In this document: piece by piece, positions 57,026 to 59,938 of the stretch
Layout of the letters: every line of letters begins with the position of its first letter
Numbering within the stretch: the stretch's first letter is position 1
NCBI GenBank assembly: GCA_965230105.1
Contig: CBDDKG010000005.1
Span: forward strand, 188,489-252,488
DNA length: 64,000 nucleotides
DNA from: Roseivirga sp.
Lineage (GTDB): Bacteria; Bacteroidota; Bacteroidia; Cytophagales; Cyclobacteriaceae
Direction: 5' to 3'
The notes under the pieces: model-generated
What the model was told of the DNA's origin: nothing
Database searches by the model: none
The model's input: only the letters and a program-made list of their open reading frames with translations
Program-made: the position numbers and the translations under genes

Positions 57026-57490
57026 TCAGCGCAACTTTTTTAATGCCCTCTTAAGTTGTTTGGCATTGACAAAAGCATCCTGTTGATGGAGAATTTCATA
57101 TTTGGCATTGAGAAAAACAAGGGTGGGATAGGCCACAACTCCGTCTTTGGCCCCAAGTTGCTGTGCCAGCTCATGAGTACCCGTATTGGTACCATTCGGT
57201 TTGTATTTAAAAGTTTGACCCAGAAAGGTGACATCTGTTTTGGATTCTCCGTCAAAGCTTACGAAGTGAAAGTCTTTTGTAAGCAGAGACTTGATCTCCT
57301 CATTTTGAAAAGTGGTCTGCTTCATATTCTCACAGAAGTTACACCAGGGGGCATGCAAGAAAACGACCACAGGCCTTGGGTCTGTCTTTTGTACAGCTTC
57401 TAGCTTCTCAAAACTTAGAGCATAGTCTTGTGCATGAGCTACGCTCAATCCCAGTGTTATATTCAATATAAAAGCTAAAGCAATTTTCAT
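57026..57490 (-). CDS. Exported thioredoxin-fold protein
   Basis: Signal peptide; APWCNFC active site and YPT cis-Pro loop. Confidence 0.85.
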   Translation of the reverse strand: MKIALAFILNITLGLSVAHAQDYALSFEKLEAVQKTDPRPVVVFLHAPWCNFCENMKQTTFQNEEIKSLLTKDFHFVSFDGESKTDVTFLGQTFKYKPNGTNTGTHELAQQLGAKDGVVAYPTLVFLNAKYEILHQQDAFVNAKQLKRALKKLR

Positions 57491-57493
57491 TAC

Positions 57494-59776
57494 TTAACGA
57501 ACTGTAAACCTTAAACCTAAGAAACCTCTGATGCCCTGGTTTGAAGCATATACGTAGGTTGGGTCAAAAGTAAGACCATTAGGGTTATTTGGTGTGGGAA
57601 TTACCTGCCCATCATTGCCGAAGGTCACATTCCTGTCAAAGGGATCGAATGGCCGGGCGATGCTATTATCGGCAGGAGTGAAATTCAATAGGTTTTTAAC
57701 TCCTCCATAAACCTCCCATTGATCACCGAACTTCTTGGTCAGCTGGATGTTTTGAATACTAAACCATGGAGATTCTGCAGGTCGATCGTCTAATTCGCCT
57801 AAGAGTGGCAAGCGCATTGGACCATACAAATTACCAGTATAATCCACCTGAATACCATTGCTGAACGTATAGCCTATACTCCAAACACCTTGCACTGATT
57901 CAGTGAGAATTTGTCGGGTTCTTTCACCGTTTTCCTCTACCGTGACATCCATTACGGTCAGACCGCCATTGATTTTCAATCCATTGTCCCAGACCATGTC
58001 CACATTGACAGAAATACCACGTGAAATAGAGTTTCCCTCCAGATTACTATAAATGATTTTGTTTGGATCAGTCTCGTAATCTGGTAGAATACGATTTGTA
58101 AAGTAGGTATAGAAGGCAGTGGCGTCCAGACCAATATAGGTGCTATTGCTGGTATAGAACTTCTTTACAAAGTTGATGTTGGTATTCCAAGACGTTTCAG
58201 GTCTTAGCTCCCCATCAAACTCCACTGTTCTCGCACCAGAGAGTGCCGCGTGGTCTTCCGTAAAGACATTGGCTACCCTATAGCCATTGCCAGCACTGAT
58301 GCGAAGAATGTTCCTTTTATTCGGAGAGTTCCATTTGTAATTGACCCTGGGAGTCACAATACCACCATGAAGGCTATTATAGTCATAGCGCATACCCAGC
58401 AATAGTTTATTGTTGGGTTTTAAAGAAATCTCATCTTGAATAAATACGCCTGGCAGATGGGTTCTAGATGGATTATTGTCATTGCTGTCATCATTAAATG
58501 TTGCAGGTGTATTGTCATCGTAATAAGTGTAACGATAGACAGTTCCTGCCACAATATCATGCTTGCCCATGCTTTTATTCCATGTCAATTGCCCAAAGGC
58601 AACATATTGATCGGCATCGTACTCGGTGTCTCCATAAAATGAATCTTGCACATGGCCATTAGCACTGAACTGGAAATTCAATAGCTCGCTCGTTGGCAAT
58701 TGGTATACACCAAATGTCTCCCACCGGCTGGTGTATATGCTTTCTCCATATACATCTGTACCCCCTCTGTTTTCGCTATTCCACTGGATTTCACCACCCC
58801 AGCGATCCTCATAAACATAGCGACCTGCTATTGAGAATACTCGATTGTCTTTGCGCTGAAAGTTGATTTTGTTGAAGATAGAGATCCTATTCTGAAGGGT
58901 TAAATCAGTGAAGTTGTCACCATTATTATCGATTGGGTTTTGGTAATTGAAATAGTTAATACCCAATAATGACTGTGTTCTTTTACCCAGATTGTACCTC
59001 AATCCAATATCAGTATTTACCTCACCCCAGTCTGTAGCGAAAACATCTACTGAGGCCTGAGGAGCATTGCCCGGTTTTTTGGTGATAATATTGACTAGGC
59101 CACCTACGGCTTCTGATCCATATAAGGTAGAGGCCGGTCCTTTGACAATCTCAACTCGCTCAATCAGAGATTGCGGAATACCCGTTAGGCCATAAACCGT
59201 AGATAAGCCACTGACAATGGGCATACCATCGATCAATACCATGGTGTATGGCCCTTCGAGACCATTGATGTGAATATCTCCCGTATTGCAGACATTACAG
59301 TTTAACTGTGGCCTAACACCATTTACATTTTGTAGCGACTCAAAGATGGAAGGTGTAGGATTGGCTTTGAAGAACTTTTGACTATATACTTCCACAGGAA
59401 CTGGGCTTTCCAGTTTGGACACTTCTTTCAGAGTACCAGAAACCACGATATCATCGAGCGCATTAATTTTTTCTACCAGGTCGAAAGATAAGGTCAAGTC
59501 AGGTGTCTCAGTACTGAGTCTAACAGCTTGACTAATTTTTTCATAACCGACCATGGAAACCACGAGCGTGTAACTTCCATAGGGTACGCTCTCAATGCTA
59601 AAAGCACCGTTTTCATCGGATACATCACCGTAAGAAGTACCCAATAAACCTACATTCACCAATACCATTGGGGTGCCTTGTGAAGACAGGGTTCCTTTAA
59701 TTGAGCCCTCCTGTGCCCAAGCGGAAAAGGAGAATAAAACGAAGAAAAAACCGAATAGAAACCTGTTTAGCCTCAT
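57494..59776 (-). CDS. TonB-dependent receptor with a plug CxxC (probable divalent-metal receptor)
   Basis: LDDIVVSGT, RPQLNCNVCNTGDIHINGLEGPY, IERVEIVKGPASTLYGSEAVGG and terminal GLRFTVR. Confidence 0.9.
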   Translation of the reverse strand: MRLNRFLFGFFFVLFSFSAWAQEGSIKGTLSSQGTPMVLVNVGLLGTSYGDVSDENGAFSIESVPYGSYTLVVSMVGYEKISQAVRLSTETPDLTLSFDLVEKINALDDIVVSGTLKEVSKLESPVPVEVYSQKFFKANPTPSIFESLQNVNGVRPQLNCNVCNTGDIHINGLEGPYTMVLIDGMPIVSGLSTVYGLTGIPQSLIERVEIVKGPASTLYGSEAVGGLVNIITKKPGNAPQASVDVFATDWGEVNTDIGLRYNLGKRTQSLLGINYFNYQNPIDNNGDNFTDLTLQNRISIFNKINFQRKDNRVFSIAGRYVYEDRWGGEIQWNSENRGGTDVYGESIYTSRWETFGVYQLPTSELLNFQFSANGHVQDSFYGDTEYDADQYVAFGQLTWNKSMGKHDIVAGTVYRYTYYDDNTPATFNDDSNDNNPSRTHLPGVFIQDEISLKPNNKLLLGMRYDYNSLHGGIVTPRVNYKWNSPNKRNILRISAGNGYRVANVFTEDHAALSGARTVEFDGELRPETSWNTNINFVKKFYTSNSTYIGLDATAFYTYFTNRILPDYETDPNKIIYSNLEGNSISRGISVNVDMVWDNGLKINGGLTVMDVTVEENGERTRQILTESVQGVWSIGYTFSNGIQVDYTGNLYGPMRLPLLGELDDRPAESPWFSIQNIQLTKKFGDQWEVYGGVKNLLNFTPADNSIARPFDPFDRNVTFGNDGQVIPTPNNPNGLTFDPTYVYASNQGIRGFLGLRFTVR

Positions 59777-59820: not shown

Positions 59821-59838
59821 AATTAGACTAATCTAAAA
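59821..59838. promoter_or_regulatory. Palindromic operator TTAGA-N4-TCTAA (DtxR/MntR-like spacing)
   Basis: AATTAGACTAATCTAAAA lies within a putative TTT-N20-TAATTTTA promoter on the - strand. Confidence 0.5.
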
Positions 59839-59882
59839 AAATAATTAGATCAATTTTATTGACTTTAATCCATTGAAGAAAT

Positions 59883-59914
59883 AAAAAAGGCCGCTCCGAC
59901 TCCTCGGAACGACC
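59883..59914 (-). terminator. Intrinsic terminator after the distal TBDR
   Basis: Minus strand ggtcgttccga-ggag-tcggagcggcc-tttttt (two G.U pairs). Confidence 0.75.
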
Positions 59915-59938
59915 CATCTCAACCAATTAATCAACAAC

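What the first reader, a model, noticed from the sequence alone, without database searches (positions are those of the whole stretch)
57026..59776. TonB receptor with a plug CxxC paired with an exported thioredoxin
Seen: CNVC at 59288-59299 in the plug, and a WCNFC thioredoxin with a signal peptide 3 nt downstream. Established: plug thiols face an oxidising periplasm, and periplasmic thioredoxins keep dithiols reduced. Inference: the thioredoxin keeps the plug dithiol ready for metal binding (Mn/Zn/Cu/Co) or gates it by redox state.
Basis: partly seen in the sequence, partly recalled or inferred. Interest (0 to 1): 0.55.

Follow-up and report, generated by a model that had tools for sequence, protein, structure and literature searches.

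The report
Metal-regulated CxxC-plug receptor with thioredoxin partner

Summary
The receptor (57494-59776, minus strand) has only two cysteines, CNVC at 59288-59299. A signal-peptide WCNFC thioredoxin-fold gene starts 3 nt after its stop.

- **Conservation.** The cysteine pair is kept in 122 of 127 relatives, down to 28% identity. The thioredoxin gene follows the receptor in about 36-38 of 80 Bacteroidota loci.
- **Regulation (new here).** A TTAG-N6-CTAA palindrome (59823-59836) lies about 50 nt upstream. In this genome the same box precedes a DtxR-type repressor/TroA-like ABC importer operon. In 39-41 of 80 related loci that repressor is encoded divergently beside the receptor, often with a ZIP, Tro-type or FeoB transporter. 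I therefore read the unit as divalent-metal uptake, most likely Mn2+, possibly Fe2+ or Zn2+.
- **Correction.** The CxxC aligns with FhuA apex A and BtuB loop SB1. It faces the extracellular pocket, not the periplasm.
- **Prior work.** Argueta-Zepeda et al. 2026 (PMC13217887) describe an MntR-regulated CQNC-receptor/thioredoxin-fold pair in Stenotrophomonas and propose the same reductase idea. They did not report it from Bacteroidota, and no mutant of that receptor or thioredoxin gene appeared in the passages I read.

Earlier first-stage notes of this scan flagged the same pair on other DNA. Verdict: a real feature, a new variant of a recently described kind, with the mechanism open.

The parts
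59888..59915 (-). Terminator-like hairpin plus T-run after the upstream receptor gene (P0006). It marks the 5' boundary of the unit.
   Evidence: 12-bp stem, 7 GC pairs, T-run; sequence
59823..59836 (.). Palindromic DtxR/MntR-type operator TTAGATTAGTCTAA (TTAG-N6-CTAA) with T-rich and A-rich flanks, about 50 nt upstream of the start codon and next to a TAnnTTT-like -7 element.
   Evidence: The same box occurs twice before the DtxR-Tro operon on contig C20 of this genome. Matches of 14/19 or better to the DtxR consensus (recalled from memory) were found in 33 of 80 receptor upstream regions, against 10 of 1600 shuffles.
57494..59776 (-). TonB-dependent receptor, 760 aa: signal peptide, CarboxypepD_reg domain, TonB box, plug, 22-strand barrel.
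   Evidence: AlphaFold2 model has pLDDT 91.3. The nearest folds are Cir and BtuB.
59441..59701 (-). N-terminal CarboxypepD_reg-like domain (residues 26-112), typical of Bacteroidota receptors.
   Evidence: PF13715, 1.8e-16
59438..59458 (-). Putative TonB box DDIVVSG (residues 107-113).
   Evidence: Sequence. It aligns with the BtuB and FhuA TonB-box region. This is an inference.
59099..59416 (-). Plug domain (residues 121-226).
   Evidence: PF07715, 4.3e-21
59288..59299 (-). CNVC (C160, C163), the only cysteines of the protein. They sit in the hairpin loop between plug strands 154-158 and 166-170, which corresponds to FhuA apex A and BtuB SB1.
57026..57490 (-). Exported thioredoxin-fold protein, 154 aa, DsbD-gamma/DsbH-like, with a family-specific beta-hairpin insertion.
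   Evidence: AlphaFold2 model has pLDDT 93.3.
57332..57346 (-). WCNFC active-site motif (W49, C50, C53). It is invariant in the family, as are E82 and the cis-Pro position P122. H106 is nearly invariant.

Best explanation
The two genes form one transcription unit, repressed by a DtxR/MntR-family metal sensor, that brings a free divalent metal ion across the outer membrane. The ion is most likely Mn2+; Fe2+ or Zn2+ are not excluded.

- **Binding.** The receptor presents its conserved cysteine pair on the extracellular apex of the plug. There, probably together with neighbouring plug residues (D167, H169) and barrel residues, it binds the ion.
- **Transport.** TonB-driven remodelling of the plug releases the ion into the periplasm. 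A TroA-type ABC system takes it up in this genome; relatives use ZIP or FeoB.
- **Thioredoxin role.** The co-translated periplasmic thioredoxin is a reductase fed by DsbD. It keeps or restores the plug cysteines as thiols. It could act while the unfolded receptor crosses a periplasm that contains DsbA-type oxidases, or when the plug is pulled towards the periplasm during transport.

**Shown here:** the gene anatomy, the conservation of the CxxC and of the pairing, the operator and its regulon, the extracellular topology by alignment, and the fold class of the thioredoxin.

**Inferred:** the identity of the metal, that the cysteines are metal ligands, and that the thioredoxin's substrate is the receptor.
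For: - **CxxC conservation.** C160, V162 and C163 are conserved at 90% or more in 127 relatives down to 28% identity, and are usually lost together. They are the only cysteines in the protein.
- **Pairing.** The thioredoxin gene sits directly downstream in 36-38 of 80 loci, with spacing of -4 to +18 nt.
- **Regulon.**
  - The palindrome at 59823-59836 is conserved in position upstream of orthologs.
  - The same box occurs twice before this genome's operon of a DtxR-type repressor, a TroA-like binding protein (3e-80 to T. pallidum TroA) and ABC components.
  - A DtxR-type gene lies divergently beside the receptor in 39-41 of 80 loci. It is followed by ZIP in 11 loci, a Tro-type binding protein in 3 and FeoB in 1.
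  - The own-genome repressor is 43% identical to one of these.
- **Topology.**, with PMC8341980 and PMC11357680.
- **Redox machinery.** One search also reports that engineered cysteines in the BtuB core were spin-labelled using a DsbA- strain; I read this as meaning that periplasmic oxidases interfere with plug cysteines. This genome has DsbA-family genes and DsbD. The thioredoxin's nearest folds are DsbD-gamma and DsbH.
- **Precedents.**
  - OprC binds copper through a plug cysteine plus barrel residues at a site outside the cell (PMC8610252).
  - The S. maltophilia CQNC-receptor/pTFP locus is MntR-controlled and switched off by 80 nM Mn2+ (PMC13217887).
Against: - Mn2+ rarely uses thiolate ligands. 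A CxxC would better suit Zn, Fe(II), Co, Cd or Cu.
- About half of the orthologous receptors have no adjacent thioredoxin. In two of the four genomes checked only generic thioredoxins were found elsewhere, so the partner is not obligatory.
- There is no expression or uptake evidence for any Bacteroidota member.
- The TroA-like binding protein has His-His-His-Asp ligands, which does not discriminate Mn from Zn.
Confidence: 0.5

Rival explanations
1. Metal relay. The thioredoxin-fold protein is not mainly a reductase. It is a periplasmic metallochaperone that takes the ion from the receptor's CxxC by thiolate ligand exchange, using C50, C53 and perhaps H106 and E82. It then hands the ion to the inner-membrane importer.
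For: - Both partners carry CxxC, as copper chaperones and their targets do (general knowledge).
- The thioredoxin family has an extra beta-hairpin insertion and a nearly invariant His106 and Glu82 beyond the standard motif. From memory, this is reminiscent of Sco-type thioredoxin-fold copper proteins.
- The gene is coupled to the receptor, not to Dsb genes.
Against: - The invariant WCxxC and cis-Pro, and the closest folds (DsbD-gamma, DsbH), are hallmarks of redox-active proteins.
- Glu82 may simply tune the cysteine pKa, as in ResA-type reductases (from memory).
- No Sco-like structure appeared among the fold matches listed.
- Many receptors work without the partner.
Confidence: 0.2
2. Structural disulfide. 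The two cysteines form a permanent disulfide that stiffens the apex loop, whose Asn, Thr and Asp oxygens bind the metal. The thioredoxin-fold protein is a dedicated oxidase or isomerase that forms this disulfide correctly.
For: - The loop faces oxic seawater.
- The loop NCNVCNTGD is rich in hard-ligand side chains that suit Mn2+.
- The cysteines are lost as a pair.
- C-x-[YF]-C resembles the DsbC and DsbG motifs (from memory).
Against: - Only C, V, C and T are conserved in distant members. The Asn and Asp positions vary.
- A disulfide between cysteines two residues apart is strained and usually redox-active rather than structural (general knowledge).
- The fold class is reductive.
- General DsbA-family oxidases already exist in this genome.
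Confidence: 0.12
3. Unrelated client. The thioredoxin serves another periplasmic target needed under metal starvation, for example a binding protein or oxidised Mn/Fe species. It is linked to the receptor only by co-regulation.
For: - The CxxC is topologically inaccessible in the folded receptor.
- Presence of the partner next to the receptor is independent of presence of the repressor gene there (19, 17, 20 and 23 of 79 loci in the four classes).
- In Dyadobacter and Rhabdobacter a family member lies elsewhere in the genome.
Against: - Across five orders, the receptor is the only neighbour that recurs with the thioredoxin gene in the 80 receptor-centred loci, often with overlapping stop and start codons.
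- The same pairing evolved or persisted in Proteobacteria and Verrucomicrobiota with CxxC-type receptors (PMC13217887).
Confidence: 0.08

Closest known systems
MntR-regulated CQNC-type TonB-dependent receptor plus periplasmic thioredoxin-fold protein (pTFP) of Stenotrophomonas maltophilia Sm18 (Argueta-Zepeda et al. 2026, PMC13217887; bioRxiv 10.1101/2025.10.14.682371)
   Same: - A bicistronic receptor-thioredoxin unit, with a CxxC in the middle of the plug and an exported CxxC thioredoxin-fold partner in conserved synteny.
- A palindromic operator of a DtxR-superfamily Mn sensor upstream.
- The same proposal: the CxxC helps bind Mn2+ and the partner is its dedicated disulfide reductase.
   Different: - The motifs are CN[VI]C and WC-x-[YF]-C here, against CQNC and CAPC there.
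- This receptor has an N-terminal CarboxypepD_reg domain.
- The regulator is a three-domain DtxR/TroR type. The inner-membrane partners are TroABCD-like, ZIP or FeoB rather than MntH.
- The paper reports a restricted distribution (Lysobacterales, Sphingomonadales, Opitutales) and does not mention Bacteroidota. Here the family was found in 59 of 301 sampled Bacteroidota genomes.
- Sequence-level membership in the CQNC clade could not be tested. None of the 150 nearest cluster representatives has CQNC.
OprC/NosA copper TonB-dependent transporter of Pseudomonas aeruginosa (PMC8610252; PDB 6FOK)
   Same: - It imports an ionic metal, not a chelate.
- A plug cysteine together with barrel residues forms the metal site on the extracellular side of the plug.
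- It has the same overall fold (rank 48).
   Different: - OprC uses CxxxM in the plug plus HxM in the barrel. Here the residues four positions after each cysteine are Asn and Asp, not Met.
- No thioredoxin partner is known to me for OprC.
- OprC belongs to copper regulation, not a DtxR-type regulon.
MnoT, the TonB-dependent manganese transporter of Burkholderia thailandensis (Si et al. 2017, as cited in PMC13217887)
   Same: [quoted passage not shown]
   Different: - MnoT works with a T6SS-secreted Mn-binding protein, TseM.
- No CxxC or thioredoxin partner is described in the text I read.
Periplasmic reductive thioredoxins: the DsbD gamma domain, Chlamydia DsbH (PDB 2JU5) and the Bacteroides fragilis cytochrome c biogenesis-related domain (PDB 3F9U)
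   Same: - The thioredoxin fold with WCxxC and cis-Pro.
- These are the best structural matches and sequence matches.
   Different: - This family has a roughly 20-residue beta-hairpin insertion, a conserved His, and C-x-[YF]-C.
- It scores far below every NCBIfam cut-off.
E. coli Cir and BtuB (PDB 2HDI, 1NQE)
   Same: They are the closest solved receptor folds. The plug aligns without gaps around the motif.
   Different: - They share 16-17% identity.
- They carry Gly/Ser or Asn/Glu residues where this family has CxVC, and IRG where this family has ING.
- Their substrates are chelates.

Membership tests
TonB-dependent transporter | Plug domain plus 22-strand barrel, with an N-terminal TonB box | tested here: met
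   PF07715 at 4.3e-21 and PF00593 at 1.1e-25. AlphaFold2 model with pLDDT 91 and Foldseek E 7.5e-30 to Cir. The TonB-box-like DDIVVSG aligns with the BtuB box region.
CxxC-receptor/pTFP manganese module (PMC13217887) | Conserved CxxC in the centre of the plug | tested here: met
   CNVC at residues 160-163, conserved in 122 of 127 relatives. The motif letters differ from the published CQNC.
CxxC-receptor/pTFP manganese module (PMC13217887) | Co-transcribed, exported thioredoxin-fold protein with CxxC directly downstream | tested here: met
   3-nt spacer in the window. Spacing is -4 to +18 nt in 33 of 36 linked loci.
CxxC-receptor/pTFP manganese module (PMC13217887) | Operator of a DtxR/MntR-family regulator in the promoter | tested here: met
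   Sequence evidence only. The palindrome at 59823-59836 is shared with this genome's DtxR-Tro operon and with ortholog promoters. No binding assay was possible.
CxxC-receptor/pTFP manganese module (PMC13217887) | Sequence membership in the published CQNC receptor clade and pTFP clade | tested here: inconclusive
   The Stenotrophomonas sequences could not be obtained with these tools. No CQNC motif occurs among the 150 nearest representatives. The supplements hold no sequences.
CxxC-receptor/pTFP manganese module (PMC13217887) | Induction under Mn (and Fe) limitation | not testable with these tools
   Needs expression data for a Bacteroidota member.
Thioredoxin superfamily, DsbD-gamma/DsbH-like (Pfam Thioredoxin_7 / Thioredox_DsbH) | Thioredoxin fold, WCxxC at a helix N-terminus, cis-Pro loop | tested here: met
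   PF13098 at 1.3e-12, PF13899 at 4.1e-12 and PF03190 at 2.7e-6. W49, C50, C53 and P122 are invariant. Fold matches to DsbH and DsbD-gamma.
OprC/NosA copper transporters | CxxxM in the plug with HxM in the barrel | tested here: not met
   The residues four positions after C160 and C163 are N164 and D167. OprC ranks only 48th among fold matches, at 11% identity.
NCBIfam selenocysteine-motif receptors (NF049945 FCYXU, NF049947 PCPU, NF049946 CU) | Score above the curated cut-off and a Sec-containing motif | tested here: not met
   46.8 bits against a cut-off of 825, and 23 bits against 800. No member was found in 301 Bacteroidota genomes. Whether their motif occupies the same plug loop was not determined.
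SusC/RagA glycan importers | TIGR04056 or TIGR04057 signature above the cut-off | tested here: not met
   Only 20.4 bits against a cut-off of 46.2 for the signature. No SusD-like gene lies next to it.

The most novel reading that the evidence does not exclude
The plug CxxC is catalytic rather than only a ligand. In each transport cycle the surface-exposed dithiol is oxidised. This could happen by reducing ligand-bound Mn(III) or Fe(III), or oxide-bound Mn(IV), to the transportable divalent ion, or by closing to a disulfide that expels the bound ion inward. The periplasmic thioredoxin, fed by DsbD, then resets the pair when TonB pulls the plug towards the periplasm. That would make this an outer-membrane transporter with its own redox cycle powered from the cytoplasm.
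Probability: 0.12. Interest if true: 0.8.

Novelty: new variant of a known kind. Interest (0 to 1): 0.5.

Why it matters
How Gram-negative bacteria bring free manganese and similar ions across the outer membrane is poorly known. MnoT, MnoP and OprC are isolated cases.

This family is a strong candidate for the main such route in Cytophagales, Flavobacteriales, Sphingobacteriales and their relatives. It occurs as a single copy in about a fifth of the Bacteroidota genomes sampled, and receptors from different orders are 57-70% identical.

It would also be the first TonB-dependent transporter I know of whose function depends on a dedicated periplasmic redox partner. The Stenotrophomonas paper raised this idea but called the module phylogenetically restricted. 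The Bacteroidota data show that the design is far more widespread, and several of these genera are culturable and could serve as test organisms.

The topological point matters for experiments. Because the cysteines face outward, the partner must act during biogenesis or during plug remodelling.

Tried and rejected
1. **Selenocysteine receptors.** NCBIfam lists Sec-motif receptor families whose CxxU-like motif might sit in the same loop. A search of 301 Bacteroidota genomes with NF049945 found none, and the control genomes gave no hit either, so this lead stays open.
2. **Plasmid search.** A tblastn search of plasmids with the receptor gave only hits of about 24-30% identity. The three I inspected have no CxxC, so they belong to other families.
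4. **Link to the neighbouring operon.** The ankyrin-DUF2271-PepSY reductase operon next door has no homolog in any of the 80 related loci and is separated by a 170-nt gap. It is not part of this unit.
5. **Upstream genes.** The second receptor and the TPR gene upstream are shared only with one other Roseivirga genome and are separated by a terminator.
6. **Siderophore or B12 receptor.** All NCBIfam equivalog scores are about a tenth of their cut-offs, and no siderophore-type binding protein or permease genes were found among the recurrent neighbours.
7. **Model geometry.** Cys-to-Cys and Cys-to-barrel distances in the models could not be measured, because coordinates are not returned.
8. **Literature.** Searches for CxxC-plug receptors or manganese receptors in Bacteroidota found nothing beyond the Stenotrophomonas paper.
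Full report
**1. What is in the sequence**

On the minus strand, ORF 57494-59776 encodes a 760-aa protein. It has a signal peptide, a CarboxypepD_reg domain, a Plug domain (residues 121-226) and a TonB-dependent barrel. Its only two cysteines are C160 and C163, which form CNVC at 59288-59299.

Three bases after its stop (TAA-GTA-ATG), ORF 57026-57490 encodes a 154-aa protein. It has a signal peptide ending AHA|QD and the motif WCNFC. It matches Thioredoxin_2, Thioredoxin_7, DsbH-type and Thioredoxin models.

A terminator-like hairpin (59888-59915) closes the preceding receptor gene. A 170-nt gap separates the thioredoxin gene from the next operon, which encodes an ankyrin protein, a DUF2271 protein and a PepSY reductase. 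The two genes therefore form their own unit.

**2. Is it more than chance?**

- All 120 closest homologs (66-94% identity) carry [LIV]-N-C-x-[VI]-C-N-T-G-D, and 74 of them have exactly two cysteines.
- In an exhaustive profile-free search, 1036 cluster representatives score below 1e-30. Among the 150 best, essentially every full-length protein has C-x-[VI]-C at this place, down to about 30% identity.
- In a 127-sequence alignment, C160, V162 and C163 are conserved at 90% or more. Of the five exceptions, four have lost both cysteines.
- In 80 related genomic loci, a member of the same thioredoxin family lies directly downstream in 36-38. The loci come from Cytophagales, Flavobacteriales, Sphingobacteriales, Chitinophagales and Saprospirales.
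- The stop-to-start distance is -4 to +18 nt in 33 of the 36 linked loci.
- The thioredoxin gene is the only gene of the window that recurs with the receptor.

**3. Regulon and likely substrate**

- *Repressor beside the receptor.* Clustering all neighbours showed a second recurrent gene: a roughly 225-aa DtxR-family repressor (DNA-binding, metal-binding and FeoA/SH3 domains), divergent from the receptor. It occurs in 41 of 80 loci, and within 500 nt upstream in 39 of 79.
- *Transporters beside the repressor.* It is followed by a ZIP transporter in 11 loci, a TroA-like binding protein in 3 and FeoB in 1.
- *Operator.* About 50 nt upstream of the receptor start, most loci carry a TTAG-N6-CTAA palindrome. 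Matches of 14/19 or better to the DtxR consensus (recalled from memory) occur in 33 of 80 upstream regions, against 10 of 1600 shuffles. In the window the box is TTAGATTAGTCTAA at 59823-59836.
- *Same box elsewhere in this genome.* Genome-wide there are 18 matches to the strict pattern. Two lie directly upstream of a DtxR-family gene on contig C20, which heads an operon with a binding protein (3e-80 to Treponema pallidum TroA, ligand positions His-His-His-Asp), an ABC ATPase and two ABC-3 permeases. That repressor is 43% identical to a receptor-adjacent one.

The receptor-thioredoxin unit therefore belongs to a DtxR/TroR/MntR-type regulon for uptake of a free divalent cation. The regulator class and the partners (Tro, ZIP, FeoB) all accept Mn2+ and Fe2+, and two of them also accept Zn2+. 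I favour Mn2+, partly because the Stenotrophomonas counterpart is shut off by 80 nM Mn2+. This remains an inference.

**4. Where the cysteines sit**

The AlphaFold2 model is confident (pLDDT 91.3). It places residues 159-165 in the loop of a hairpin between plug strands 154-158 and 166-170.

A gapless alignment with E. coli BtuB and FhuA, whose sequences were taken from the annotated K-12 record, gives these equivalences:

| This receptor | FhuA | BtuB |
|---|---|---|
| N159 | R81 | N57 |
| C160 | G82 | G58 |
| C163 | N85 | G61 |
| T165 | Y87 | L63 |
| D167 | H89 | S65 |

FhuA R81 lines the external ferrichrome site (PMC11357680). [quoted passage not shown] The CxxC therefore points into the extracellular binding pocket.

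It also constrains any mechanism that involves a periplasmic partner. The same BtuB paper reports that engineered cysteines in the core were spin-labelled using a DsbA- strain. I read this as meaning that periplasmic oxidases interfere with plug cysteines. This genome has two DsbA-family genes and a DsbD.

**5. The thioredoxin partner**

Its model (pLDDT 93.3) is a thioredoxin fold with an inserted beta-hairpin. The nearest solved folds are a Bacteroides fragilis cytochrome c biogenesis-related domain, Chlamydia DsbH and the DsbD gamma domain. All belong to reductive periplasmic pathways.

W49, C50, C53, E82 and P122 are invariant in 26 family members, and H106 is nearly so. The Glu recalls the pKa-tuning Glu of ResA-type reductases (from memory). 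The His together with the insertion leaves a metal-binding role open.

Four genomes whose receptor lacks the adjacent partner were checked. Two (Dyadobacter, Rhabdobacter) encode an unlinked WCGWC relative that keeps the insertion and the His. The other two have only generic thioredoxins. In this genome P0002 is the only strong family member. The partner is thus frequent but not obligatory.

**6. Comparison with what is known**

The literature search found one directly relevant study: Argueta-Zepeda et al., Curr Res Microb Sci 2026 (PMC13217887; preprint October 2025). In Stenotrophomonas maltophilia Sm18:

[quoted passage not shown] - Structural modelling suggests Mn2+ coordination by the motif plus barrel residues.
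- No mutant of that receptor or of pTFP appeared in the passages I read. The authors describe a restricted distribution (Lysobacterales, Sphingomonadales, Opitutales) and state that the precise function remains to be determined experimentally.

What is new here:

- The Bacteroidota version has different motif letters and an added CarboxypepD_reg domain.
- It uses a three-domain DtxR-type regulator and Tro, ZIP or FeoB partners.
- It is found in 59 of 301 sampled Bacteroidota genomes and 29 of 143 genera, always as a single copy. It was not found in one large family (0 of 63) at this threshold.
- The cysteines face outward.

OprC is a solved precedent for a plug cysteine that binds an ionic metal outside the cell (PMC8610252). 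This protein lacks OprC's CxxxM/HxM pattern. All curated NCBIfam receptor families score far below their cut-offs.

**7. Mechanism and rivals**

My best reading (about 0.5) has three parts. The unit is a DtxR-repressed outer-membrane importer for Mn2+ (or Fe2+/Zn2+). The outward-facing CxxC takes part in binding. The co-translated, DsbD-fed thioredoxin keeps or returns the pair to the thiol state, either during passage of the unfolded receptor through a DsbA-containing periplasm or during TonB-driven plug remodelling.

The rivals are:
- a CxxC-to-CxxC metal relay, with the partner as chaperone (0.2);
- a structural disulfide, with the partner as oxidase or isomerase (0.12);
- an unrelated client for the thioredoxin (0.08).

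The most novel reading not excluded is a true redox cycle of the plug. Thiol oxidation would be coupled to reductive release of Mn(III) or Fe(III), or to ejection of the ion, and the partner would reset the pair (about 0.12).

**8. Limits**

- The Stenotrophomonas sequences were not obtainable, so clade membership is untested.
- The DtxR consensus, the ResA glutamate and the Sco comparison are recalled from memory.

Earlier first-stage notes of this scan describe the same receptor-thioredoxin-DtxR arrangement on other genomes. I reached the DtxR link independently, before reading them, and I do not count them as evidence.

**9. Verdict**

The feature is real, strongly conserved and biologically coherent. 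Novelty is moderate, because a near-identical module and hypothesis were published in 2026. The Bacteroidota family is a widespread and so far unreported variant, and the mechanism is directly testable.

Noticed in passing
own genome contig C20:71707-77983 (locus L084:3708-9984), outside the window: Two copies of the same TTAGAC-N4-[CT]CTAA box precede an operon of a DtxR-family repressor, a TroA-like binding protein, an ABC ATPase and two ABC-3 permeases. The first permease (428 aa) carries a C-terminal Fe_dep_repr_C (DtxR metal-binding/dimerisation) domain, so it is a transporter fused to a sensor domain.
   Followed up: partly
own genome contig C12:34203-34216 (locus L085), outside the window: A further box with the same T-rich and A-rich flanks lies about 85 nt upstream of a 266-aa outer-membrane protein of the Phenol_MetA_deg family. 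This may be a second DtxR-controlled outer-membrane channel.
   Followed up: partly
L091:1417-1983 (Dyadobacter) and L092:1417-1980 (Rhabdobacter): These genomes have a receptor without an adjacent thioredoxin. They encode an unlinked WCGWC relative that keeps the family's hairpin insertion and the conserved His. No operator box was seen next to it.
   Followed up: partly
L057:8402-8713 and L057:5398-5820 (Rhabdobacter; the same arrangement in Dyadobacter loci L070-L074 and L080): In this clade the receptor is followed by a 103-aa CBM48/CBM20-like protein instead of the thioredoxin, and is preceded by a divergent DoxX membrane protein.
   Followed up: no
L106:2404-5694 (Parabacteroides distasonis record NZ_OY725762.1): A distant receptor (27% identity, no plug CxxC) is flanked by a 142-aa cysteine-rich protein (9 Cys, including CCGVC) and an exported heavy-metal-associated domain protein (CDHC). 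This looks like a different thiol-based metal receptor module.
   Followed up: no
L104:2524-5169 (Haliscomenobacter hydrossis plasmid pHALHY01): Another distant receptor without a CxxC is preceded by a 119-aa exported protein with a GVCCNGD motif.
   Followed up: no
NCBIfam NF049945, NF049946, NF049947: Curated receptor families are defined by selenocysteine motifs (FCYXU, CU, PCPU). FCYXU reads as CxxU and could be a selenium version of the plug CxxC. NF049945 aligns to residues 163-256 of this receptor from profile position 93. No member could be fetched to check.
   Followed up: partly
G068:C3:29463-31727 (a Flavobacteriaceae-type genome in the phylum sample): The ortholog there has one in-frame TAA, so it may be a pseudogene or a sequencing error.
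   Followed up: no
window 59846-59862, minus strand: The stretch AATAAAATTGATCTAAT, just upstream of the operator, contains a further TCTAA half-site. It could be a second weak operator or a Fur-type site. The neighbouring operons are Fur-controlled according to earlier notes.
   Followed up: no
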